NCBI GenBank assembly: GCA_021732085.1 | Contig: JAKFVQ010000030.1 | Span: forward strand, 69,965-93,964 | DNA length: 24,000 bases | Source of the DNA: Candidatus Obscuribacterales bacterium | GTDB taxonomy: Bacteria; Cyanobacteriota; Vampirovibrionia; Obscuribacterales; Obscuribacteraceae | Direction: 5' to 3' | Shown: positions 12,949 to 24,000 of the stretch, in pieces | Layout: each line of letters starts with the position of its first letter | Position numbering within the stretch: position 1 is the first letter of the stretch | Position numbers and translations under genes: made by a program | Notes under the pieces: model-generated | Database searches by the model: none | Seen by the model: only the letters and a program-made list of their open reading frames with translations | What the model was told of the DNA's origin: nothing

Positions 12949-14649
12949 ATGGGAATTCCAAGATCAAGGACCAAAAGAAAACGTTCTTTGCGCAGCGGCT
13001 ATTTTGTTAGTCTTGCAGGTACTCTTTCTCTGTCCTTATTAGCCGGATTTATGCAGTCCAGCGATGCGGAGAGCATTTACGATCAGGTCATGCGATCAGA
13101 GAGAGCCAAACAGCAAAAGAATTCATCAAGTACTAATGCAGGAGCAAGTAACGCCATCACTGGTGGTGCAGCGAATTCGTCTCCATCTTCAGGGCAGTCC
13201 CCATATCCCTCTAGTGTGCAAGGACAATCTCCAAATCCTTCAAGCGCGCAAAGCGATGGCTCCAATCCAACTGGCGGTCAAGGTGGATCCGGAGTCCGAA
13301 CTCCATCCAAAGTACAAAATGCAGTAAATCGCGGCATACAGAGCGGTATACAAAGAGGGTTGAACCATGGCACCAATGCTATTGATAGGCTTGGTAGAAA
13401 GTTTGGAATTCAGGGACTTGGGTCGAGTTTGAGCTCCCCAAATGGAATGTCGATTCCCAATGGACAGTCAATTCCCAATGGACAGTCAATTCCATCAGGA
13501 GGGCAGCCTTATTCGCCCGCGCTCGGATCTCAAGCAAACGGACCTGAAGAGTCGTCTTACAGAAGGCATGTCACGCCATCTGTTTCTCAATCAAGCGGGG
13601 CGAACGATGATGGCAGAGCCGCTTGGGAAGCAGCGGGCAAACGTGCTCGCGAATCACAAAATAATGCGTATCTTACATCAGCGCAAAATGCTGAAGCTCG
13701 CGGAGATTGGATGCAGGCAGCATTTGCGTACAATCAAGCAATGGGTGACACGATTAGAACAGAAGATGACGAAGCAGGAAGAAGGAATCACACAGGCTCT
13801 AACGATGAGATGATTAAAAGGCAAGCACGGGATCCCGCTTTCAAGACGTTGAACATGAAGTCAGCCTATTGCTGGACTCAGTTAATCAACCAGATATATG
13901 CTGGCCAGGTCAAGAATGTTGACCCTAGGCATTGTGAAAGTCAGCTGGAACACAGCTATGCTTATTTGAAACTGCGTGACCCAGGAAATGCTGCCTGGCA
14001 TTATCTCGATGCGGTCTATTATTGCTCCGACAATAGAACAAAAGACTGGCACTACATTCTTGCTTGGAATCGAATTATCGATGCGCTTAAGTGTCCGCGA
14101 CTTACACCATCCATCAAAGCGAAGTGCTTGGCGTTGCAGGCCCATATCAAGCTAGCAAAAGAGCTACAACAAAATGACATGAGACGTGCCGTTTTTAGCA
14201 TGGAACAAGACCTTGTTTGGAATGTCGAACATCCCCACATAGCGGGCACAGAATACAGCACTTCCAGGGTTCAGATTGACGAAACGCATGAACGAGTGAC
14301 GACATATGCGAGGGATTATCTGAATACGGAACTTTGGGCTGTCGAGACCTACGATGATTGCAAAAAGGACATAGCGCAGAACTTCCCTGCATTCAAAACT
14401 AAATGGTTGAAACAGCTGAACGATATGATGGCCATGCCTAATCACGGGATGCCTGTGCCACCAGGTCCTTCCAATGAAGAGCCTGCGATATACTGCCCTC
14501 CTCGTTGGGAAGAGCTCGCTTTTGGTCCGTTGGATCTTACAATTGGAAGACAGTATCCTAATGGTGGACCTGGAAGCGGCCACTGTGATCCCGATCTTCT
14601 TCCGCGAGCCTATATTCAGGCGATGAACCGGAAAGTTAAAGGCAAGTAG
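12949..14649 (+). CDS. secreted hypothetical protein with S/G/Q/P-rich low-complexity N-terminal half and Cys-containing C-terminal domain
   Basis: GGAG lies 6 nt upstream of the ATG. A basic N-terminus plus the hydrophobic segment YFVSLAGTLSLSLLAGFMQSSDA looks like a signal peptide. The 566-aa ORF has no family I recognise. Confidence 0.75.
   Translation: MGIPRSRTKRKRSLRSGYFVSLAGTLSLSLLAGFMQSSDAESIYDQVMRSERAKQQKNSSSTNAGASNAITGGAANSSPSSGQSPYPSSVQGQSPNPSSAQSDGSNPTGGQGGSGVRTPSKVQNAVNRGIQSGIQRGLNHGTNAIDRLGRKFGIQGLGSSLSSPNGMSIPNGQSIPNGQSIPSGGQPYSPALGSQANGPEESSYRRHVTPSVSQSSGANDDGRAAWEAAGKRARESQNNAYLTSAQNAEARGDWMQAAFAYNQAMGDTIRTEDDEAGRRNHTGSNDEMIKRQARDPAFKTLNMKSAYCWTQLINQIYAGQVKNVDPRHCESQLEHSYAYLKLRDPGNAAWHYLDAVYYCSDNRTKDWHYILAWNRIIDALKCPRLTPSIKAKCLALQAHIKLAKELQQNDMRRAVFSMEQDLVWNVEHPHIAGTEYSTSRVQIDETHERVTTYARDYLNTELWAVETYDDCKKDIAQNFPAFKTKWLKQLNDMMAMPNHGMPVPPGPSNEEPAIYCPPRWEELAFGPLDLTIGRQYPNGGPGSGHCDPDLLPRAYIQAMNRKVKGK
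13438..13500 (+). repeat. in-frame 18-bp tandem repeat (~3.5 copies) encoding (S/M)IPNGQ units
   Basis: ATTCCCAATGGACAGTCA at 13453-13470 is repeated exactly at 13471-13488, with degenerate flanking copies. The protein reads PNGMSIPNGQSIPNGQSIPSGGQ. Confidence 0.8.
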
Positions 14650-17357: not shown

Positions 17358-18179
17358 ATGCATCATCGAGAAAGAGATTTCAGCGCGGACAGAATTCAGA
17401 GCGCCATACTAGATGGGGTTAATCGTGATGGAAAGCCGGATCTAACTGAAGCACAACGTTTGCTGAACGCAGCGTTTTTGAATTTGCCATCGGAGAAATT
17501 CAACAAAATTGCGACTGATCTTGAAGTCCGCAATAGTGATTACCAGTGGCAGAAAGAGGAGGACGAACGCTCCGGCAGGACTCGACATGGCAATATTGCA
17601 AGCGGTTTAGGAGATGTGTCTGTTCATCGCGACCGGCATGGGAATGTTGTCGCTATGGTAATCAACGATTCTAAGGGATGGCACGCTATGGGTGCCGATA
17701 TCGTCGGAACGCGCGTTTTTGATGCAGGCAATCCAAAATTGTTGGATACAGGTCGAGTAGCGCAGCATCGCACTGAATACGCTTCTGTGCTGCCTCAGGA
17801 GAATGTGGTTAACCAATCAGTGTCGAACCGAATAGAAGTAAGACCGTTGCCCGCTCCTGCCCAACGAATCATGGCTCCGGAGATGATGATGCCGCCGGAT
17901 CAATATTCGCGCGGGCTTAGACAAGATATTGTCGATTGTTCGACCTATACGATAAGGAAGGATGATAATTGGTTGGTTATTGCGCAAAAATTGCATCCCG
18001 AGTTGCATCGCTATCGGGATTTACTTGATGAAGCCCATCGCTTGAAAGCCATCAATGGCGGTACCATTAATTTGAGAGTAGGTCAAAAAATTGCCACCAG
18101 AGATGCATACGATATTGACCGTGAGGTGCGCGCGCGCATGGCTCATGCTTATGGATGGAATCGTAACCGTCAGTATTAA
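17358..18179 (+). CDS. hypothetical protein with C-terminal LysM-like peptidoglycan-binding domain
   Basis: RBS GGGAGAG is present. The C-terminus YTIRKDDNWLVIAQKL...INGGTINLRVGQKIA fits the LysM pattern. The N-terminal 190 aa are unassigned. Confidence 0.7.
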   Translation: MHHRERDFSADRIQSAILDGVNRDGKPDLTEAQRLLNAAFLNLPSEKFNKIATDLEVRNSDYQWQKEEDERSGRTRHGNIASGLGDVSVHRDRHGNVVAMVINDSKGWHAMGADIVGTRVFDAGNPKLLDTGRVAQHRTEYASVLPQENVVNQSVSNRIEVRPLPAPAQRIMAPEMMMPPDQYSRGLRQDIVDCSTYTIRKDDNWLVIAQKLHPELHRYRDLLDEAHRLKAINGGTINLRVGQKIATRDAYDIDREVRARMAHAYGWNRNRQY

Positions 18180-18239
18180 TCTAGTCTTGCATCGGAATTC
18201 AGAGACTAACTAAGGGCTTGGTGAATCTCTTTGCTCAAA

Positions 18240-18276
18240 CGCCAGATCTATAACAGGTCTGGCGCTATTCTTTTTG
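18240..18276 (+). terminator. rho-independent terminator
   Basis: Stem CGCCAGA / TCTGGCG (18240-18264), followed by CTATTCTTTTT. Confidence 0.6.
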
Positions 18277-18409
18277 ACTTATCAGGGAGCAGGTGCAAGC
18301 CGGAGCAGGTTTTCCTGGTACTGTGAGTGGTGGCGTGGTGCCAGGGTGTTGACACGCCGTAGGCTGGGAGATCGCCCCCACCGGGAGAGAAATTTTTCGC
18401 AAGATCGGC

Positions 18410-18438
18410 TTGACAGGACTTCGAAGAGTGATTTAAAT
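18410..18438 (+). promoter_or_regulatory. putative sigma70-type promoter of the rsr / Y RNA locus
   Basis: Perfect -35 TTGACA (18410-18415), 17-nt spacer, -10 TTAAAT (18433-18438). This implies a ~390-nt leader before rsr. Confidence 0.45.
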
Positions 18439-18836
18439 TGGTCTTTAGATACGGAGTATTAGTTATGAAGTCGGCGAACGCAAAATTGAATATAAATCAA
18501 TTGCCGACCAGCGGCGTGGGGGCCACGTGCCCACGGACAGGCCGCTCCGATGCTATGCTCTGGTCGCAAATGTATTCAGATCACGGTAGACGCCCCGAAG
18601 AGAAACTTGATTCTCAGCGAAGCTAATTCACCCAGTGCTCTGACAGGTAAATCGATTGTAGCGGCGACGGTGTAGCTTTCCACAGTGGAAGTTCTGCACA
18701 AGTCTTTGCAAAATCGCGAGAAACCGTAAATGTTCCTGACTTTGCAGGTGGTGCTGGCAACATCGCTTATTCGCTTGCAGGTCGGTTTCTCGTCCACTTC
18801 CAATTCAAACAACGTGCCGAAAGGGGACGATGCAAA

Positions 18837-20462
18837 ATGTTCAACACTCTAAGAAATTTCATACTCAACAAGGCAACCCAGAGACAACACTTGCCAGGAA
18901 CCGTGCCGAACTCAGCCGGTGGCTATTCATTTGCGGTCGATTCCTGGAAGCAGTTCGAGAGATTTCTTTTGCTCGGAACAACCGGTGGAACATACTACAT
19001 CGGTGAACGCGACTTGACCAAGGAAAACCTGGACGCAGTGCTTAAGTGCATTGACGAAGATGGTGGACTGGCAGTAAGGCTGATTGAAGATGTTTCAATT
19101 GCCGGTCGCGCTCCAAAGAATGACCCTGCTATTTTTGCTCTGGCACTTGCTTGCTCAACAAGCAACGACCTGACGAGACAGTTGGCTCTGAATGCAGTGC
19201 CGAATGTTTGCAGAACCTTCACTCATCTTTCGCACTTCCTGACTTACATCAAGCAAGGAAAATTGCGCGGTTTTGGACGAGGTCTGACAAGAGCGATAGC
19301 GCGTTGGTTCAACGAAAAGCCAGTGGCAGATCTGGCGTATCAAGCCATTAAGTATCAATCTCGCGATGGCTACAGCCAGCAAGACGTATACAGACTTTCT
19401 CACCCTGCTCGTTTTTTGAAGCTGGATGCGGAAAGTCCTCGAAGACTGATTTATAACTTCATCGCAAAAGGCGAAGTGCCGGAGGAACTCGAAAATTTTG
19501 AAAGCGATGAGTATATTCCTGTTCTGAGACTTGCTGCGGCTCAAGGAGTTCTAAAAGGAAGAACGGAAAATATTCCGCTGGCAATTGACCAATGGGATTT
19601 GCCGATGGAAACTGTTCCGACTGAAAGTCGAACACGTGAAGTGTACAAAGCTGTTTTGCGCAAGGCTGGTTTGACCTGGATTCTGCGCAACTTGGGAAAC
19701 CTGACGGCTCAAGGAGTTCTGGACACAAAAGCTGATCTGGAATTCGTGATCGAGAGGCTGACCTCGCGAACACAGCTGCGAAAAGCGCGCATTCACCCGC
19801 TGGCTATCTTCCAAGCTCTGCGCATTTATGCTGCAGGCCGTGGATTCAAGGGAACCAACACATGGACTCCCAAGCGTAAATTGATCGATGCACTGGATAC
19901 AGCATTCTATGCTTCTTTCAAGGACGTTGAGCCAAGCGGTAAGCGAATCTTGTACGCGGTAGACGTATCTGGATCAATGCGAGGAGCTCGCGCATCAGGG
20001 TTGACTAACATCTCTGTCTTTGAAGCTGCCGCTGTAATGACAATGGCTGCTGCAAGTGTGGAAGATGATTTCACTTTGATCGCTTTCGATACCGGTACAT
20101 TTGAACTCAACCAACTGTCAAACAGACAAAGACTCGATGACATTGTGGCTAGATTTCAAAGTTTCGGTGGAGGTGGAACGGATTGCGCACTTCCGTTCAA
20201 ATACGCCCTGGACAAGAAGCTGGCGGTTGACGCATTTGTCGTCTTCACGGACAGCGAAACCTGGGCGGGGAACCAACATCCAATCGTTGCTCTGGATGAA
20301 TACAGAAAGCGCATGAATTTGCCGAATACAAAGGCTATTAACGTAGCTATGACGGCGAATCGCTTCACAACACTGCCCGCCTCAGATCCGCTCACTCTCG
20401 AGTGCTACGGATTTGACACAAGCATTCCGTCGGTGATCAGTTTGTTCCTGACGGGAGGCTAA
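18837..20462 (+). CDS. rsr: Ro 60-kDa autoantigen orthologue (Rsr): TROVE domain + von Willebrand A domain
   Basis: The N-terminal region NSAGGYSFAVDSWKQFERFLLLGTTGGTYYIGE is typical of TROVE/Ro60. The C-terminus has the vWA MIDAS motif YAVDVSGSM. Y-RNA-like genes follow immediately downstream. Confidence 0.9.
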   Translation: MFNTLRNFILNKATQRQHLPGTVPNSAGGYSFAVDSWKQFERFLLLGTTGGTYYIGERDLTKENLDAVLKCIDEDGGLAVRLIEDVSIAGRAPKNDPAIFALALACSTSNDLTRQLALNAVPNVCRTFTHLSHFLTYIKQGKLRGFGRGLTRAIARWFNEKPVADLAYQAIKYQSRDGYSQQDVYRLSHPARFLKLDAESPRRLIYNFIAKGEVPEELENFESDEYIPVLRLAAAQGVLKGRTENIPLAIDQWDLPMETVPTESRTREVYKAVLRKAGLTWILRNLGNLTAQGVLDTKADLEFVIERLTSRTQLRKARIHPLAIFQALRIYAAGRGFKGTNTWTPKRKLIDALDTAFYASFKDVEPSGKRILYAVDVSGSMRGARASGLTNISVFEAAAVMTMAAASVEDDFTLIAFDTGTFELNQLSNRQRLDDIVARFQSFGGGGTDCALPFKYALDKKLAVDAFVVFTDSETWAGNQHPIVALDEYRKRMNLPNTKAINVAMTANRFTTLPASDPLTLECYGFDTSIPSVISLFLTGG

Positions 20463-20468
20463 AGGAGC

Positions 20469-20520
20469 TAGCTGGTGGATAGACAATTTGCTTAGCAAAT
20501 ACGAGTTCACCAGCTATTTT
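20469..20520 (+). terminator. long hairpin plus T-run after rsr (terminator or processing structure)
   Basis: Outer stem TAGCTGGTG (20469-20477) / CACCAGCTA (20508-20516), inner hairpin ATTTGC-TTA-GCAAAT, then TTTT. Confidence 0.5.
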
Positions 20521-20535
20521 CCACTTTAGGTTTTC

Positions 20536-20613
20536 GGTGCGAGCCGAATCAAGAGGTTTATCGTCTGTCACACGAATCCACCCTCTTTAGCATAAATTGC
20601 TCGCACCATTTTT
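20536..20613 (+). ncRNA. Y-RNA-like module 1 (short, YrlB-like)
   Basis: Perfect 9-bp closing stem GGTGCGAGC (20536-20544) / GCTCGCACC (20599-20607). C20545 is unpaired and followed by GAA. Second helix AAGAGG (20551-20556) / CCTCTT (20582-20587). A GTTTATCG motif is present. The module ends in T5. Confidence 0.7.
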
Positions 20614-20622
20614 ACTGAACAC

Positions 20623-20696
20623 GCCTCTGAAGATTACCGGATATGATCATCGAGCTACGAACTCGAAGGCAGTTGGTTCGATTCCAACCGGGGGCA
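20623..20696 (+). tRNA. tRNA-Arg(ACG)-like gene, non-canonical (A at position 8)
   Basis: Manual cloverleaf: acceptor GCCTCTG/CGGGGGC (two G-U pairs), D-arm GATT-ACCGGATAT-GATC, anticodon arm TCGAG-CTACGAA-CTCGA, variable AGGCA, T-arm GTTGG-TTCGATT-CCAAC, discriminator A. Confidence 0.6.
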
Positions 20697-20746
20697 TTGT
20701 TTAACTTCAGTGGCACCGTGCGCGCCCCGCGTTACCGGATTAGAAT

Positions 20747-20819
20747 ACTCCGTTCTTCTAGTGGTTTAGGAAACCGTTCTTTCAAGACGGGAAGATGAGT
20801 TCAATTCTCATACGGAGTG
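20747..20819 (+). tRNA. tRNA-Glu(TTC)-like gene, non-canonical (A1-U72, AT-rich T stem)
   Basis: Manual cloverleaf: acceptor ACTCCGT/ACGGAGT, TC, D-arm TTCT-AGTGGTTTA-GGAA, anticodon arm CCGTT-CTTTCAA-GACGG, variable GAAG, T-arm ATGAG-TTCAATT-CTCAT, discriminator G. Confidence 0.6.
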
Positions 20820-20854
20820 ATGTTTGTATGCGCAAAATCGCGTTTTAAAAGGAG

Positions 20855-20998
20855 GTGGCTCGGACCGAATTGATAAGGTTATCGATCATAACGAGGGGTC
20901 GGTGGTTCAAGTCCACCCAGCGGCTTGCCGCTGTAGCTCAGTTGGTTAGAGCACCAAAAACGCCTTATCAAAATAAATTGTCCGAGCCATTGCTTTTG
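20855..20998 (+). ncRNA. Y-RNA-like module 2 with tRNA-like domain (YrlA-like)
   Basis: Closing stem GGCTCGGAC (20857-20865) / GTCCGAGCC (20980-20988), with C20866 unpaired and followed by GAA. Second helix TGATAAGG (20871-20878) / CCTTATCA (20963-20970). The interior holds T-arm GGTGG-TTCAAGT-CCACC (20901-20917), capped acceptor-like hairpin CAGCGG-CTTG-CCGCTG (20918-20933) and D-arm GCTC-AGTTGGTTA-GAGC (20936-20952). A T-rich tail follows. Confidence 0.75.
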
Positions 20999-21002
20999 GT
21001 TT

Positions 21003-21097
21003 TGCATGGACCGAATGGAGAAGTTTATCGACACAGTTAGGAAGGTGGGCTTGCGAATCCACCTGGCGCACGTCAAAGCTATTGGCATGCGTTTATG
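21003..21097 (+). ncRNA. Y-RNA-like module 3 (degenerate T-arm-like hairpin)
   Basis: The 5' end GCATGGACCGAATGGAGAAGTTTATCG carries the shared motif. GCATG (21004-21008) pairs with CATGC (21086-21090). An internal hairpin GGTGG-(10-nt loop)-CCACC lies at 21045-21064. The module ends GTTTAT. Pairing is less regular than in modules 1, 2, 5 and 6. Confidence 0.5.
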
Positions 21098-21130
21098 ACT
21101 TCTTCGAATAGATCGTCTATGCAGCTTATC

Positions 21131-21210
21131 CTGTGCGAGCCGAACGAAAGAAGGTTATCGTTTTTCCACGAACTAATCACACTATCTAAATCGTTCGCGT
21201 TCACGTTTTA
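21131..21210 (+). ncRNA. Y-RNA-like module 4 (short)
   Basis: The 5' end TGTGCGAGCCGAACGAAAGAAGGTTATCG carries the shared motif. CGAACGA (21141-21147) pairs with TCGTTCG (21191-21197). Imperfect lower pairing GTG/CAC. The module ends GTTTTAT. Confidence 0.5.
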
Positions 21211-21223
21211 TCCTTGGAAGTAA

Positions 21224-21318
21224 GATCTGGTGCGAGCCGGAGTGAGAGGCTTATCGTCTTTGTAAACGACTCAACACCCTCTCAGCGCGAAATAGTTCGC
21301 ACCAGATTCTCAATTTTT
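21224..21318 (+). ncRNA. Y-RNA-like module 5 (short, YrlB-like)
   Basis: 13-bp closing stem ATCTGGTGCGAGC (21225-21237) / GTTCGCACCAGAT (21295-21307), with C21238 unpaired. Second helix TGAGAGG (21243-21249) / CCTCTCA (21278-21284). A CTTATCG motif is present. The tail reads TTCTCAATTTTT. Confidence 0.7.
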
Positions 21319-21334
21319 GGAAGCTAGATAGAAA

Positions 21335-21476
21335 TGCGCGGACCGAAGCGAGAAGATTATCTTGAAGCCGAGCACGGGGATGGTTCAATTCCACCTGGCG
21401 GCACGCCGACAGAGCTCAAGGGGCGAGCAGCTCGGAGGTCTCTTCGCAATAAGTTGTCTGTGCAACTATATTTTGA
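21335..21476 (+). ncRNA. Y-RNA-like module 6 with tRNA-like domain (YrlA-like)
   Basis: Closing stem TGCGCGGAC (21335-21343) / GTCTGTGCA (21456-21464, two G-U pairs), with C21344 unpaired and followed by GAA. Second helix GCGAGAAGA / TCTCTTCGC (one mismatch). The interior holds T-arm-like GATGG-TTCAATT-CCACC (21379-21395), capped hairpin TGGCGG-CACG-CCGACA and D-arm-like GAGCT...AGCTC (21412-21433). The tail reads TATTTT. Confidence 0.7.
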
Positions 21477-21489
21477 ATTGTGTAAACGC

Positions 21490-21587
21490 GACACGCGAGC
21501 CGAACAGATGAAGTTTATCGATAGTTCCAAACTAACGAAACCACCAAGCCAGACTTCGTCGCACATGAATCGCTCGCGTCTTTTATT
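21490..21587 (+). ncRNA. Y-RNA-like module 7 (short)
   Basis: CGCGAGC (21494-21500) pairs with GCTCGCG (21572-21578), followed by an unpaired C and GAA. Second helix ATGAAG (21508-21513) / CTTCGT (21554-21559). A GTTTATCG motif is present. The module ends TCTTTTATT. Confidence 0.6.
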
Positions 21588-21654
21588 GTTTGAACTGAAG
21601 AAGTGGGACTATGTGGACTTGTTATCCCACGCTTATTTGCCTGTTCTAAAGCGC

Positions 21655-21966
21655 TTAAGCGACTGAGCTTTCTGCCGCAGAGCCGTCGTTCATGCGAGTT
21701 TTGAGATCTTCTGTGAAAGAATTGCAAAGGTTGCTTGCTTTTTCTTTCAATTCAAGGCTCTTCTCTTTGACTTGTCCAGCCAATTCTTTGGTTTTGTCTG
21801 CAATATCATGTCGCAGCTCTTCGCCTGGTTTTGGTGCAAACAGATTGCCGAGGACAAATCCTGCTGTCATGCCGGCAACCGTACCAACTACAGCACCAGC
21901 AGTCGCTCCTACGAAGAAGACAACTTGCATTGTTTTTAGTGTTGGATTGAGCAAGCTATTGAACAT
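21655..21966 (-). CDS. YtxH-domain (general stress-type) small membrane-anchored protein
   Basis: GATAGAVVGTVAGMTAGFVLGNLFAPKPGEELRHDI matches the YtxH pattern and is followed by a charged helical tail. I place the start at ATG comp(21964..21966), preceded by GGGAG, rather than at the track's TTG at 21981. Confidence 0.75.
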   Translation of the reverse strand: MFNSLLNPTLKTMQVVFFVGATAGAVVGTVAGMTAGFVLGNLFAPKPGEELRHDIADKTKELAGQVKEKSLELKEKASNLCNSFTEDLKTRMNDGSAAESSVA

Positions 21967-22179
21967 AATCTTTTCTCCCAAATGCGTTCTGACGTTTGGT
22001 TCTAGACAGAGGGTCGTCTAAATAGTTCCGGGCGTCTGAATTGTTTGGTCTGAGCTTAAGAGAAAATAGTTTGCTTTGATATAGTGGTGGATTGGTGAAG
22101 ATTCTCAAAACTTCCATCACCAGTAGATGTTTTGTCCTCCCTGCGCAAACGGGATACTAAACGAAGTAGTAGCAATACC

Positions 22180-22214
22180 CCAAAAAGCAAAGACTTCGCA
22201 AGCAATTTGCGGAG
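22180..22214 (-). terminator. rho-independent terminator after the 87-aa gene
   Basis: An 8-bp stem spans 22194-22201 / 22207-22214. On the minus strand it is followed by TCTTTGCTTTTTGG. Confidence 0.5.
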
Positions 22215-22234
22215 CCTTCGCTTCTTTGAAAAGG

Positions 22235-22498
22235 TTACCAGGTCTTCATCTCGGATGCATCCCAGAGGGAGGCTTCGACGTTGTTGCCGTCGGCGTCCTT
22301 GAGTGCGAGGAAGTAGACCCAGGTGATGCTATCCACTGCGGCTTGCTGATACTCAGTGTATTTCTTGCCGTCGGGCATGGTGTACCGTTTGAGGCTGTAC
22401 CAGACGGCGGAAATGGATCCGATATTCTCGACGCTTACGGCGTTAGCCACAAGCGCGGAAGCGGAAGGATTCAGGCCAGCCAGGCGGGACCTTTTCAT
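22235..22498 (-). CDS. hypothetical protein (87 aa)
   Basis: GGAGA lies 6 nt upstream of the ATG. The amino-acid composition is balanced. GC-rich third codon positions match the neighbouring gene. A terminator lies downstream. Confidence 0.6.
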   Translation of the reverse strand: MKRSRLAGLNPSASALVANAVSVENIGSISAVWYSLKRYTMPDGKKYTEYQQAAVDSITWVYFLALKDADGNNVEASLWDASEMKTW

Positions 22499-22532
22499 AA
22501 CTGTCTCCGTGAAGAGTGGTGGATGATAAATG

Positions 22533-22565
22533 CTCTAAAAGAGGCGAGCGCATTGCTGCGCTCGC
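22533..22565 (-). terminator. strong hairpin / terminator between two minus-strand genes
   Basis: Perfect 9-bp stem GCGAGCGCA (22544-22552) / TGCGCTCGC (22557-22565) with a 4-nt loop. On the minus strand it is followed by CTCTTTTAG. Confidence 0.55.
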
Positions 22566-22579
22566 AGGAAATGTCGTGC

Positions 22580-22990
22580 CTATTGGCTGCGATTCTCCAG
22601 CCAGCGCGGAATAACGCGCGTGCCGAAGTAGAACCCAAGTGCGCTGGCGAAGCCCAAAAGAGCCACGCCGAGCAGGGCACCGGGGTCGAAATAGTTGGGT
22701 GCGGGGGTGGTTCCCTTACCCAAATCGGCCAGCACCATAACCAGATAGATTATGTTGGACGAGCCAACTCCGGCGGCGAGAAGCCCCTGGAGAGACAGGT
22801 CCAATTTCTTGTCGATGAAGACGAGAAGTGCGGCGACGAATGCTGCAAATGCGGTGCCGAAAGTGGTCAGGATGAGTGCCACGAGCGGCCACATGAAGTG
22901 CGGATCCATCCAGTTGAGGATGACGCTGGCGGTGAAGCCAAGCAATCCGCCGCATGTTGCGCCTAGCAAAACGCCAATCGGTTTAATCAT
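22580..22990 (-). CDS. small Gly/Ala-rich integral membrane protein (136 aa, ~4 TM)
   Basis: I place the start at ATG comp(22988..22990), preceded by GGAAAGGAAA. The track's longer 185-aa form adds an N-terminus with no RBS. Hydrophobic segments run throughout. Confidence 0.65.
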   Translation of the reverse strand: MIKPIGVLLGATCGGLLGFTASVILNWMDPHFMWPLVALILTTFGTAFAAFVAALLVFIDKKLDLSLQGLLAAGVGSSNIIYLVMVLADLGKGTTPAPNYFDPGALLGVALLGFASALGFYFGTRVIPRWLENRSQ

Positions 22991-23658
22991 GGTGTTTCCT
23001 TTCCATGAGTTGAACTTGTTTTTCCGGTGTCCACTTTTAACGTTCGAAATCGGCTCATCCGTTAGATGGCTTTGGAAACAATTTTTTTGATGTGGATGAG
23101 AGTAGGGTTGCAGTGATGCCGGATCTCGAAAAGCCAAATTAAAGGGACAGTTCAGTTCTATTGATGGAGCAGCAACAATGTCAATGAATTACAGCTGCGG
23201 AGGCCTCTGCGGTGCCAAAATCAGTTCACTCCGCTTTGCACCGATTTAATATTTCACGTCGAAAGGTCGCTTATGATGCGGCTCTCAATATGTGCGGCCC
23301 AATCAGTGCTAATTGGGCATAGTATCGCAAATGGTGCGAGGACTTAAAGAATTGGGCCAGGTTGAAATTGAATCTCAGCTCTTGGCCTTGGCGTCGTAGA
23401 ACTTGTAACCTTGTTTTGGCCCAGATAGTGGTGACTGGCCCAAAAAAACTTTCTTTGTGTACAAAACCCTAGTCTGTCCTTTGAATTCAATCTACCTATT
23501 TCATAGTCTGTTATTGCTTCCGTTCTCACTAAGAAATCAACCACTTTTCGCCCAAAACACACAAATAACATTCAAATTCAAAACTGTGTGTTGAACTTAG
23601 GTTCGAGCGAGAGGTACGGTTGTGGAACAGGAAGTGTTCAAAACTTCGGAGCTATCAC

Positions 23659-24000
23659 ATGAACTTCTTCAAGACCGTCGCTGGACTCGTCACCGGCGCG
23701 GGCGCCGCAGTCGTTGCTGGAGTCACCGTGTCCCTTCTGGGCATGACGGCATTTGACTTCCACTCTGCGCTCGTGCTCGGTGCCGTCCTCGGTACCTCGC
23801 TCGTCCTGCTCAACATCGTTGAGCCGCAGAAGAAGGCAGTCAGCACTTTCCTCGGCGGCGGTATGGCTGCTTGCGCCTACATCGCCCTCACCTCGGCCGC
23901 TGCGATGACCCTGCTGGGCGCTTTCGGCGCTGTCATCATGGGTGCGTTCGTCGGCTGGCTGGTCGTGTCGGCTGATGCCTTTAACGGCAATCAGTCCTAA
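23659..24000 (+). CDS. small Gly/Ala-rich integral membrane protein (113 aa)
   Basis: ATG 23659 has GGAG upstream. The protein starts MNFFKTVAGLVTGAGAAVVAGV and has 3-4 hydrophobic segments. Codon usage is strongly GC3-rich. Stop at 23998-24000. Confidence 0.6.
   Translation: MNFFKTVAGLVTGAGAAVVAGVTVSLLGMTAFDFHSALVLGAVLGTSLVLLNIVEPQKKAVSTFLGGGMAACAYIALTSAAAMTLLGAFGAVIMGAFVGWLVVSADAFNGNQS

What the first reader, a model, noticed from the sequence alone, without database searches (positions are those of the whole stretch)
20855..21476. Graded series of tRNA mimicry within the array: two full permuted tRNA-like domains, one degenerate
Modules 2 and 6 replace the apical loop with a T-arm (GGTGG-TTCAAGT-CCACC; GATGG-TTCAATT-CCACC). 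A tetraloop-capped acceptor-like hairpin and a D-arm follow it (GCTC-AGTTGGTTA-GAGC in module 2). The order is T-arm, acceptor, D-arm, which is the circularly permuted layout described for YrlA. Module 3 keeps only a T-arm-like stem with an expanded 10-nt loop. Modules 1, 4, 5 and 7 have none. The locus therefore looks like a snapshot of duplication followed by loss or gain of the tRNA-like module.
Basis: partly seen in the sequence, partly recalled or inferred. Interest (0 to 1): 0.6.

Follow-up and report, generated by a model that had tools for sequence, protein, structure and literature searches.

The report
Ro60 Y-RNA array with tRNA mimics
Just downstream of a bacterial Ro60 gene lie seven small Y-RNA genes: one carries a textbook rearranged tRNA look-alike, one a weakened version and one a decayed remnant, all belonging to an RNA class described in 2014 (YrlA) but here in an unusually large array with two real tRNA genes inside it.

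Summary
The window is the dnaA-dnaN region of a Candidatus Obscuribacterales genome. An rsr (Ro60) gene at 18837-20462 is followed on the same strand by seven Y-RNA modules and two tRNA genes.

- **Module 2 (20856-20990)** is a canonical YrlA-type RNA. It has a T-arm, a tetraloop-capped acceptor-like hairpin, UA and a D-arm, with a G15:C48 pairing. Rfam YrlA scores it 45.8 bits, below the gathering score of 69.
- **Module 6** keeps the same permuted cloverleaf. It lacks U8, a pyrimidine at 48 and A21, and has mismatches in the T and acceptor stems. Its core is still 90% identical to the closest relative, against 61-79% for the longer spacers.
- **Module 3** really spans 21002-21125. It belongs to the same sequence class, but its core drifts (62% identity).
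- **Modules 1, 4, 5 and 7** form a separate short class.

Across 27 related modules the T, acceptor-like and D helices covary strongly.

Each module type has orthologs in related genomes. The series is therefore an old paralog set with erosion, not a fresh snapshot, and nothing shows gain of the tRNA-like domain. Permuted tRNA mimicry, several YrlA-like sequences near one rsr gene, and a Y RNA with only a possible T-arm were all published in 2014. This is a new member of a known kind, of moderate interest.

The parts
18837..20462 (+). rsr: Ro60 ortholog (TROVE plus Ro60 vWA domains), 541 aa
   Evidence: Pfam vWA_Ro60 8.7e-47 and TROVE 3.3e-30. Relatives of 86-96% identity lie in Obscuribacterales-type contigs.
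20535..20609 (+). Module 1: short Y RNA (GAGCCGAA class) with no T, acceptor or D block
   Evidence: Covariance model 35.2 bits, with 83 model positions deleted. MFE z-score -3.7. 91% identical to L008.
20623..20696 (+). tRNA-Arg(ACG) embedded in the array, with A8 instead of U8
   Evidence: ARAGORN. Rfam tRNA 48.8 bits. 96% identical to L008 and conserved in L001, L009 and L010.
20746..20820 (+). tRNA-Glu(UUC) embedded in the array
   Evidence: ARAGORN. Rfam tRNA 49.4 bits. 99% identical to L008.
20856..20990 (+). Module 2: canonical YrlA-type Y RNA. T-arm 20901-20917, acceptor-like hairpin 20918-20933, UA 20934-20935, D-arm 20936-20952. Lower stem 20857-20865 pairs with 20981-20989.
   Evidence: Rfam YrlA 45.8 bits, E 1e-8, full model. 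The MFE structure equals the proposed structure, z-score -4.9. Pair probabilities T 0.93, acceptor-like stem 0.96, D 0.72. All tertiary signature nucleotides are present. 95% identical to L008.
21002..21125 (+). Module 3: eroded YrlA-class Y RNA. Intact Y stems. T-like stem with a 10-nt loop at 21044-21063, then a long hairpin at about 21066-21093 in place of the acceptor and D arms.
   Evidence: Covariance model 53.3 bits over the full model. Stems 9/9 and 8/8 paired, acceptor-like 5/7, D 2/4. Core 62% against Y-stem parts 83-89% identity to L008. ARAGORN does not call it after un-permutation.
21131..21203 (+). Module 4: short Y RNA, probably defective in this genome because 6 nt of the upper-stem 3' strand are missing
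   Evidence: Covariance model 16.1 bits. Deletion relative to L008 and L001. MFE z-score -1.6.
21228..21305 (+). Module 5: short Y RNA
   Evidence: Covariance model 32.2 bits. MFE z-score -4.7. 88% identical to L008.
21334..21466 (+). Module 6: divergent YrlA-class Y RNA. Closing helix 21368-21373 pairs with 21430-21435. T-arm 21379-21395 (A.C mismatch). Acceptor-like hairpin 21396-21411 (G.A mismatch). GA 21412-21413. D-arm 21414-21428.
   Evidence: Covariance model 70.8 bits, E 4e-16. No Rfam YrlA hit at E<=10. Feature table. Acceptor-like third pair is G.A here, C-G in L008 and G-C in L001. Core 90% identical to L008. ARAGORN calls it after un-permutation. The MFE prefers a shifted GGGAU/AUUCC hairpin, and T-stem probability is 0.20.
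21491..21582 (+). Module 7: short Y RNA with a longer apical loop
   Evidence: Covariance model 24.0 bits. Orthologs in L001 and L010, but only 52% identity at the aligned position in L008, with no covariance-model hit there.

Best explanation
The segment 20535-21582 is a co-oriented array of seven Y-RNA genes and two tRNA genes placed directly after the Ro60 ortholog rsr in a Candidatus Obscuribacterales chromosome.

Each module folds into a terminal two-part stem. The 5' strand of that stem carries the conserved G-R-R-C-C-G-A-A and YUAUC motifs, which are the presumed Ro60-binding module. The apical 'effector' part differs between modules:
- Module 2 is a canonical YrlA. Its apical part is a circularly permuted tRNA body (variable-loop region, T-arm, closed acceptor-like hairpin, U8-A9, D-arm) with every nucleotide needed for the tRNA elbow and core.
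- Module 6 is an old paralog of the same class. It keeps the three arms and a 6-bp closing helix, has lost several core tertiary nucleotides, and is still under constraint.
- Module 3 is a further paralog. Its Ro-binding stems are conserved but its tRNA-like core has eroded into a T-like hairpin plus a long hairpin.
- Modules 1, 4, 5 and 7 belong to a separate short class comparable to YrlB, without the T, acceptor or D block.

Inferred by analogy with S. Typhimurium, M. smegmatis and D. radiodurans, not shown here:
- The array is transcribed with or just after rsr as a precursor and is processed into individual RNAs, the embedded tRNAs giving RNase P/Z cut sites.
- The RNAs bind Ro60.
- They gate Ro60 or tether it to partner proteins, and the module-2 domain presents a tRNA-shaped surface to tRNA-recognising enzymes.
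For: - **Ro60 identity and context:**
- **Module detection:** all seven modules, and only they, match a covariance model of related modules. All lie on the rsr strand within 1.2 kb of rsr.
- **Y stems:** they covary across 31 modules in 5 genomes, with 95.1% of cells paired against 40-49% for slid controls.
- **T, acceptor-like and D helices:** RNAalifold recovers them de novo. They covary across 27 modules: T 4 of 5 pairs, acceptor-like 7 of 7 and D 3 of 4 have double changes.
- **Module 2:** Rfam YrlA hit. The MFE equals the proposed fold. It has UA, A14, G15:C48, GG and A21.
- **Module 6:** full-length alignment at 70.8 bits. A compensatory C-G/G-C change occurs in orthologs at its mismatched acceptor-like pair. 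Core 90% conserved. Called as tRNA after un-permutation, against 0 of 400 shuffles.
- **Constraint gradient against L008:** M2 95%, M1 91%, M5 88% and M6 87%, above the spacers of more than 11 nt at 61-79%. M3 and M4 are at about 75%.
- **Two sequence classes:**
- **Same architecture elsewhere:** mixed long and short modules, often two YrlA-like per locus, occur at about 15 other Ro60 loci.
- **Co-transcription:** no terminator-like site and no excess of promoter-like sites inside the array. Gaps of 2-16 nt between M1, tRNA-Arg, tRNA-Glu and the YrlA module in L009.
- **Literature:** YrlA layout, motifs, several YrlA-like sequences near rsr, the T-arm-only YrlB and processing from a single precursor (PMC4201824). 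Tertiary determinants (bioRxiv 10.1101/312249).
Against: - There are no expression, Ro60-binding or modification data for this organism. Everything functional is by analogy.
- Module 2 scores below Rfam's gathering threshold (45.8 against 69). Module 6 is not seen by the Rfam model at all.
- The strict published 5' motif GNCGAAN0-1G is only approximately matched. Long modules read GGACCGAA.
- For module 6, thermodynamic folding and RNAalifold on its three orthologs prefer a shifted hairpin over the T stem. The L001 ortholog has lost T and D pairing. Its tRNA-like fold may therefore not form.
- An ORF of 110 codons overlaps modules 6 and 7 and stays open in three genomes.
Confidence: 0.8

Rival explanations
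1. Modules 3 and 6, together with module 4, are dead copies. On this reading only module 2 and some short modules are functional Y RNAs, and the 'series' is gene decay in a tandem family.
For: - The M3 core is 62% identical to L008, at or below most spacers. M4 is 74% identical and lacks 6 nt of its upper stem.
- M6 lacks U8, Y48 and A21 and has two stem mismatches. Its T-stem pair probability is 0.20.
- The L001 ortholog of M6 has T 3/5 and D 2/4 pairs.
- L008 has no recognisable M7.
Against: - The M6 core is 90% identical to L008 against 61-79% for the longer spacers. The acceptor-like stem shows compensatory change among orthologs.
- M3 keeps perfectly paired Y stems (9/9 and 8/8) that are 83-89% conserved. 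Its type (T-arm plus long hairpin, with covarying pairs) recurs in L008 and L010. It may therefore still bind Ro60.
Confidence: 0.3
2. The series records stepwise gain: short Y RNAs acquired first a T-arm (module 3) and then a full tRNA-like block (modules 6 and 2).
For: - Only the ordering of forms within one locus.
- Tandem tRNA genes that could serve as raw material lie in the same array.
Against: - M3 carries the stem signature of the long class, not of the short class.
- In the model alignment M3 shows sequence that aligns to the acceptor-like hairpin and to the D-arm (AGCU..UUGG).
- Canonical YrlA-like modules are present at Ro60 loci of distant lineages (L003, L004, L005, L013, L017), so the full domain is ancestral.
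- No short-class module has a conserved T-arm half. The 10-mer CGAATCCACC in M1 is not conserved in the M1 orthologs of L001, L009 and L010.
Confidence: 0.05
3. The tRNA-like signals are artefacts of neighbouring or degraded ordinary tRNA genes. Chen et al. warn that the T-arm of one tRNA followed by the D-arm of the next can give this false positive.
For: - Two real tRNA genes are in the array.
- The covariance model gives a weak 19.4-bit hit across the tRNA-Arg/tRNA-Glu junction in L001.
Against: - M2 and M6 lie 36 and more than 500 nt from the tRNAs.
- They have no anticodon arm, and their acceptor-like stem is closed by a tetraloop.
- The block is embedded in covarying Y stems that carry the Ro-binding motif.
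Confidence: 0.02
4. The conservation of the module 6-7 region is due to a protein-coding gene (ORF 21334-21666, 110 aa) rather than to RNAs.
For: - The ORF is called as a gene on Logan contigs.
- It stays open from the same ATG in the window, L008 and L001.
- Its last 26 codons show substitutions of 11/0/15 by codon position against L008.
Against: - The coding-like signal is confined to the tail downstream of module 7 (21586-21666).
- The N-terminal part coincides with an RNA that matches the module model at E 4e-16, with a compensatory stem change.
- The middle part is 34-52% identical to L008.
- The peptide is not conserved in L001 or L010.
Confidence: 0.05

Closest known systems
YrlA (Rfam RF02553; S. 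Typhimurium YrlA, PDB 6CU1; M. smegmatis YrlA)
   Same: - Encoded next to rsr on the same strand.
- A terminal stem with a CGAA-type motif and YUAY.
- An apical domain ordered variable-loop region, T-arm, closed acceptor-like hairpin, UA, D-arm.
- T loop UUCRA, GG in the D loop, and a Levitt pair.
- Module 2 has all of these.
   Different: - Module 2 scores below Rfam's gathering score.
- The 5' motif reads GGACCGAA rather than GNCGAAN0-1G.
- The acceptor-like stem is 6 bp plus a CUUG loop, so RNase P cleavage as in M. smegmatis (7 bp) is not expected. This is an inference.
- No rtcBA or rtcR gene was identified among the neighbouring ORFs that were scanned.
- Module 6 lacks U8, Y48 and A21 and has stem mismatches.
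YrlB (S. Typhimurium YrlB; M. smegmatis YrlB with 'a possible T-arm')
   Same: - A second, shorter Ro60-bound Y RNA encoded beside YrlA, processed from the same precursor in M. smegmatis.
- M. smegmatis YrlB has a T-arm only.
- Modules 1, 4, 5 and 7 (no tRNA block) and module 3 (T-like arm only) parallel this (PMC4201824).
   Different: - Four short modules here instead of one.
- No sequence homology to YrlB was tested, because there is no Rfam model.
- The T loop of module 3 is expanded to 10 nt in this genome.
D. radiodurans Yrn1/Yrn2 and the RYPER complex (Ro60, Y RNA and PNPase)
   Same: - Several Y RNAs encoded beside rsr.
- A modular design of Ro-binding stem plus effector module.
- Yrn1 has a T-arm-like element.
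- This system is the source of the tethering and gating mechanism proposed here.
   Different: - Yrn1's tRNA-like parts are arranged differently: the hairpin between its T and D regions occupies the anticodon position.
- Both strands of the Ro-binding helix are metazoan-like.
- The genes lie upstream of rsr.
Other tRNA mimics: tmRNA (including two-piece, circularly permuted tmRNA genes), TYMV TLS and mascRNA
   Same: A T-arm and D-loop elbow is used as a recognition surface. Circular permutation of a tRNA-like gene has a precedent in two-piece tmRNA (own knowledge).
   Different: Those mimics have a free CCA or processed acceptor end and act in translation, in replication or as processing signals. 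The modules here have a closed acceptor-like hairpin and sit inside a Ro60-binding stem.

Membership tests
YrlA (Y RNA-like A; Chen 2014, Wang 2018, Rfam RF02553) | Encoded within about 4 kb of a Ro60/TROVE gene, on the same strand | tested here: met
   rsr is at 18837-20462 (+). All seven modules lie at 20535-21582 (+).
YrlA (Y RNA-like A; Chen 2014, Wang 2018, Rfam RF02553) | 5' motif GNCGAAN0-1G (presumed Ro60 contact) and conserved YUAY | tested here: inconclusive
   - YUAY (UUAUC) is present in all seven modules.
- The 5' motif is a variant. It reads GGACCGAA in M2, M3 and M6, and GAGCCGAA or GAGCCGGA in M1, M4, M5 and M7.
- The CCGAA core is conserved, but the strict published pattern is matched only in part.
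- The motif resembles the metazoan GGUCCGA quoted in PMC4201824.
YrlA (Y RNA-like A; Chen 2014, Wang 2018, Rfam RF02553) | T-arm, closed acceptor-like stem-loop and D-arm in that order, as the conserved structure | tested here: met
   - M2: the MFE equals this fold.
- Family level: RNAalifold plus covariation support it.
- M6: the arms are present, with one mismatch each in the T and acceptor-like stems.
- M3: only a T-like stem. The acceptor-like stem has 5/7 and the D stem 2/4 pairs.
YrlA (Y RNA-like A; Chen 2014, Wang 2018, Rfam RF02553) | Tertiary-core nucleotides: T loop UUCRA, two G in the D loop, UA between the acceptor-like and D stems, a pyrimidine at the last variable-loop position, and a Levitt pair (G15:C48 or A15:U48) | tested here: met
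   - Met for M2: UUCAAGU, GG, UA, C48 with G15, and A21.
- Not met for M6: GA, G48 with A15, and C21. Only the T loop and the GG run are kept.
- Not met for M3: AA, a 10-nt loop and no D stem.
- 18 canonical relatives carry UA, A14, GG and A21.
YrlA (Y RNA-like A; Chen 2014, Wang 2018, Rfam RF02553) | Score at or above Rfam's gathering threshold (69 bits) | tested here: not met
   - M2 scores 45.8 bits (E 1e-8 in a 1.3-kb search). M6 and M3 get no hit at E<=10.
- All Obscuribacterales-type relatives also score 28-47 bits.
- This is an operational cut-off, so these are divergent members.
YrlA (Y RNA-like A; Chen 2014, Wang 2018, Rfam RF02553) | Bound by Rsr/Ro60, and modified by TruB and DusA at the T and D loops | not testable with these tools
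   Needs RIP-seq or Northern blots and modification mapping.
Canonical tRNA | Open 7-bp acceptor stem with a 3' end, an anticodon arm, and the order acceptor, D, anticodon, T | tested here: not met
   - ARAGORN and Rfam tRNA call only 20623-20696 and 20746-20820 in the array.
- M2 and M6 are recognised as tRNA only after artificial un-permutation with a grafted anticodon arm.
Short Y RNA of YrlB type (Ro60-bound, no full tRNA-like domain) | Ro-binding stem with the shared 5' motif, encoded beside YrlA, and lacking the D and acceptor arms | tested here: met
   - M1, M4, M5 and M7 align to the model only through the two Y stems and the YUAUC region, with 59-83 model positions deleted.
- Their stems covary.
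- Ro60 binding was not testable.

The most novel reading that the evidence does not exclude
The rsr locus of this Obscuribacterales clade may be a dedicated 'tRNA-surveillance island'. In it, true tRNAs (an unusually conserved, non-canonical A8 tRNA-Arg(ACG) and a tRNA-Glu(UUC)), a full tRNA mimic, partial mimics and plain Y RNAs would be co-transcribed. The embedded tRNAs and mimics would punctuate processing by RNase P/Z. The different grades of mimicry would be maintained to tether Ro60 to different tRNA-recognising partners, or to act as decoys for them, for example anticodon nucleases or modification enzymes. The same interleaving of tRNA genes and YrlA-like modules in an unrelated proteobacterial MAG (L003) would then reflect a general functional coupling, not an accident.
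Probability: 0.12. Interest if true: 0.7.

Novelty: new member of a known kind. Interest (0 to 1): 0.35.

Why it matters
Bacterial Y RNAs have been studied experimentally in only three species, and the role of the tRNA-like domain is still unknown.

This locus and its relatives offer a natural series in one operon: an intact YrlA, a constrained variant without the tRNA core nucleotides, an eroded copy that keeps its Ro-binding stem, and four short Y RNAs. That series could be used to ask three questions:
- Which features of the mimic matter for Ro60 partners and for tRNA enzymes.
- How many distinct Y RNAs one Ro60 can use.
- Whether tRNA genes embedded in such arrays serve processing or function.

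It also extends YrlA-type RNAs to the non-photosynthetic sister group of Cyanobacteria. It shows that the Rfam model misses this clade at its gathering score.

Tried and rejected
- **Rfam at gathering score:** it returned only tRNAs. The YrlA hit appears only with the E-value threshold.
- **Scans with the Ro60 protein:** the metagenome scan gave no close relative (35-50% identity). The viral scan gave one distant locus. An exact-pattern scan for the embedded tRNA-Arg in viral contigs found nothing.
- **RNAalifold on small ortholog sets:** the three module-6 orthologs gave a shifted hairpin instead of the T stem, with no discriminating covariation. This is inconclusive with three sequences, and some canonical relatives also get low T-stem probabilities. 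On the three module-3 orthologs the T-arm was not recovered because of indels.
- **Vestigial half T-arm in short modules:** the 10-mer CGAATCCACC, shared by modules 1 and 3 and nearly by module 7, was considered as such a vestige. It was rejected because it is not conserved in the M1 orthologs of L001, L009 and L010, nor in the M7 orthologs.
- **Tandem-tRNA false positive:** rejected (see rivals).
- **Conserved structure after module 7:** none was found by RNAalifold.
- **Hairpin after rsr:** it has no covariation.
- **Fixed-spacing search for the 5' motif:** it found only M4 and M7, because the spacing varies.
- **Literature gaps:** the Annual Review on bacterial Ro60 (PMC10870794) and the supplementary tables of Chen 2014 are not held. 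The largest number of Y RNAs previously listed per locus could therefore not be checked.
Full report
**Context**

The window carries yidC, dnaA, dnaN and a tRNA-Asp. At 18837-20462 (+) it has a 541-aa protein with TROVE and Ro60-vWA domains, that is, an Ro60/Rsr ortholog. Its closest relatives lie on contigs of Candidatus Obscuribacterales MAGs and similar metagenome assemblies, at 96, 90, 88, 86 and 65% identity and below. The finding lies in the 1.2 kb between rsr and a convergent ytxH-like gene.

**Checking the observation**

- Module 2 (M2): T-arm 20901-20917, hairpin CAGCGG-CUUG-CCGCUG at 20918-20933, UA, and D-arm 20936-20952.
- Module 6 (M6): T-arm 21379-21395, hairpin 21396-21411, GA, and D-arm 21414-21428.
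- Module 3 (M3): GGUGG-(10 nt)-CCACC at 21044-21063.

The T-loop pattern GGTTCRANTCC occurs four times in the window against 0.14 expected. The four sites are tRNA-Asp, tRNA-Arg, M2 and M6.

Rfam's YrlA model aligns M2 end to end at 45.8 bits, E 1e-8 in the local search, below the gathering score of 69. It does not see M6 or M3. ARAGORN and Rfam also find two ordinary tRNA genes inside the array, tRNA-Arg(ACG) at 20623-20696 and tRNA-Glu(UUC) at 20746-20820.

**Related loci and a family model**

Every related Ro60 locus examined has co-oriented modules with the same 5' motif, and often two YrlA-like hits. Thirteen canonical modules from eight loci were aligned. RNAalifold, without guidance, returned a lower stem, an upper stem, a 5-bp T-arm with a 7-nt loop, a hairpin directly after it, and a 4-bp D-arm. 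19 of its 33 pairs showed compensatory changes.

A covariance model built from this alignment was run without filters over 18000-24000. It finds exactly the seven modules, all on the + strand:

| Module | Bits | Note |
|---|---|---|
| M2 | 141.2 | in the training set |
| M6 | 70.8 | full-length alignment |
| M3 | 53.3 | full-length alignment |
| M1 | 35.2 | T/acceptor/D block deleted |
| M5 | 32.2 | T/acceptor/D block deleted |
| M7 | 24.0 | T/acceptor/D block deleted |
| M4 | 16.1 | T/acceptor/D block deleted |

M6 and M3 align through the T, acceptor-like and D region. This alignment also corrects M3's extent to 21002-21125. Its lower stem is UGCAUGGAC/GUCUAUGCA and its upper stem is GGAGAAG/CUUCUUC. 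It is therefore a long, 124-nt module.

On 27 tRNA-domain modules from 15 sources, 95.8% of cells are paired, against 39-48% when partners are slid by 1-3 columns. 29 of 33 pairs show double changes: T 4 of 5, acceptor-like 7 of 7, D 3 of 4. The two Y stems covary likewise across all 31 modules of five genomes.

**How tRNA-like is each module?**

I used the determinants listed by Chen 2014 (PMC4201824) and Wang 2018 (bioRxiv 10.1101/312249).
- **M2** has all of them: T loop UUCAAGU, UA, A14, G15 with C48, GG and A21. Its stems are perfect. Its predicted pair probabilities are T 0.93, acceptor-like 0.96 and D 0.72.
- **18 canonical relatives** share UA, A14, GG and A21.
- **M6 and its orthologs** (L008 6502-6634, L001 6736-6867) consistently have GA, G at 48 with A15, and an A.C mismatch in the T stem. 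Position 21 is C in the window and L008 copies and A in L001.
- **The window copy of M6** has a G.A mismatch in the acceptor-like stem where L008 has C-G and L001 has G-C.
- **Folding of M6:** thermodynamic folding prefers a shifted GGGAU/AUUCC hairpin (T-stem probability 0.20). Some canonical relatives also fold 'wrongly' in silico, so this is not decisive.
- **Un-permutation test:** I cut the hairpin loop, added one G-C pair and grafted one generic anticodon arm. ARAGORN then calls M2, M6 (window and L008) and two relatives as tRNAs. It does not call M3, and it of 400 shuffles.

M6 is thus a complete permuted cloverleaf at the secondary-structure level, but it lacks the core tertiary signature. 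M3 has a T-like stem with a 10-nt loop. Its orthologs have a 7-nt UUCGA-type loop. The acceptor and D arms are replaced by a long hairpin that shows compensatory changes among the three orthologs.

**Evolution**

The modules form two discrete classes by their Ro-binding stems. M2, M3 and M6 and their orthologs share GGACCGAA...GUCYR. M1, M4, M5 and M7 share GAGCCGAA...GYUCGC. Most window modules have a syntenic ortholog in L008, and most have one in L001, L010 or L009.

Nucleotide identity of each segment to L008:

| Segment | Identity to L008 |
|---|---|
| rsr | 89% |
| Embedded tRNAs | 96-99% |
| M2 | 95% (core 96%) |
| M1 | 91% |
| M5 | 88% |
| M6 | 87% (core 90%) |
| Spacers longer than 11 nt | 61-79% |
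| M3 | 75% (core 62%, Y-stem parts 83-89%) |
| M4 | 74% |
| M7 | 52% |

So M2 and M6 are under constraint. The tRNA-like core of M3 is not, although its Ro-binding stems are. M4 has lost part of its upper stem in this genome.

The window has no long direct repeats. L002, in contrast, carries a 345-bp tandem duplication that includes a whole YrlA module at 98-100% identity. The family therefore does evolve by duplication and decay. The window array, however, is an old, largely orthologously conserved set. The direction visible here is erosion of YrlA-class copies, not gain.

**Mechanism**

Shown here: the anatomy, the covariation, the adjacency to rsr and the constraint.

Inferred from the three studied bacteria:
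- The 5' strand motif binds Ro60.
- The array is made as a precursor. M. smegmatis YrlA and YrlB come from one precursor. No terminator-like sites lie inside the array. Gaps of 2-16 nt separate M1, the tRNAs and the YrlA module in L009.
- The apical modules tether or gate Ro60, as Yrn1 does with PNPase.
- The M2 domain is a substrate or binding surface for tRNA enzymes.
- With a 6-bp acceptor-like stem, M2 should resemble S. Typhimurium YrlA, which is not cleaved by RNase P, rather than M. smegmatis YrlA, which has a 7-bp stem.

**Comparison and novelty**

Already published in 2014:
- Permuted tRNA mimicry in YrlA.
- More than one YrlA-like sequence near rsr (355 candidates in 276 genomes).
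- A second Y RNA with only a possible T-arm (PMC4201824).

Not described in the papers I could read:
- The size of the array: seven modules here and eight in L001.
- A conserved YrlA paralog that lacks the tRNA core nucleotides.
- tRNA genes embedded between the modules. These also occur interleaved with YrlA-like modules in a proteobacterial MAG, L003.
- The Obscuribacterales host.

This is a new, divergent member set of a known kind, of moderate interest.

Noticed in passing
window 20623-20696 and 20746-20820: tRNA-Arg(ACG) and tRNA-Glu(UUC) lie inside the Y-RNA array. They are 96-99% identical to L008 and almost invariant in L001, L009 and L010, while most spacers are 61-79% identical. Both score only about 49 bits on Rfam tRNA, against 71.5 for the window's tRNA-Asp. 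tRNA-Arg has A8 instead of the near-universal U8. tRNA-Glu has A1-U72 (G1.U72 in relatives) but keeps U11-A24, U13.G22 and a 4-nt variable loop. I could not test whether they are the genome's only copies.
   Followed up: partly
L003 729-1237 (Proteobacteria MAG JADFVY010000024): YrlA-like module, tRNA-Asp, YrlA-like module and tRNA-Asn are interleaved directly upstream of rsr in an unrelated lineage. L019 has a cluster of tRNA-Ile, Phe, Gly and Arg downstream of its Ro60 gene. Co-location of tRNA genes with Ro60 and Y-RNA loci may be recurrent.
   Followed up: partly
window 21586-21666 (+), the tail of ORF 21334-21666: A 26-codon stretch (LFELKKWDYVDLLSHAYLPVLKRLSD*) just after module 7 shows 11/0/15 substitutions by codon position against L008, which is coding-like. 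The 110-codon ORF that contains it overlaps modules 6-7. That ORF is called as a gene on Logan contigs and stays open in the window, L008 and L001. The peptide is not conserved in L001 or L010.
   Followed up: partly
window 20471-20515: A hairpin (GCUGGUGGA...UUCACCAGC) lies immediately after the rsr stop codon. It is sequence-conserved in L008, L001 and L009 but shows no covariation. It could be an attenuator or a processing element ahead of the array.
   Followed up: partly
L002 5019-5540: A 345-bp tandem duplication carries a complete YrlA-like module. The copies are 98-100% identical and differ by a 3-nt indel in the acceptor-like loop. This is a truly recent duplication in the family.
   Followed up: yes
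window 21131-21203 (module 4): Compared with its L008 and L001 orthologs, the window copy lacks 6 nt of the 3' strand of the upper stem. It has the lowest model score (16.1 bits) and is probably a defective copy.
   Followed up: partly
L013/L014 and L024: The Ro60 homologs at 58% identity sit among phage-like genes (lysozyme, helicase, SSB, Enc34-type ssDNA-binding protein) and are followed by two YrlA-like modules. Phage-borne Ro60 and Y-RNA cassettes therefore exist close to this clade.
   Followed up: no
window 17358-18179 and 12949-14649: Two sizeable ORFs near rsr (273 aa and 566 aa) have no Pfam match. The 273-aa ORF is conserved upstream of rsr in L008, L009, L010, L020 and L021.
   Followed up: no
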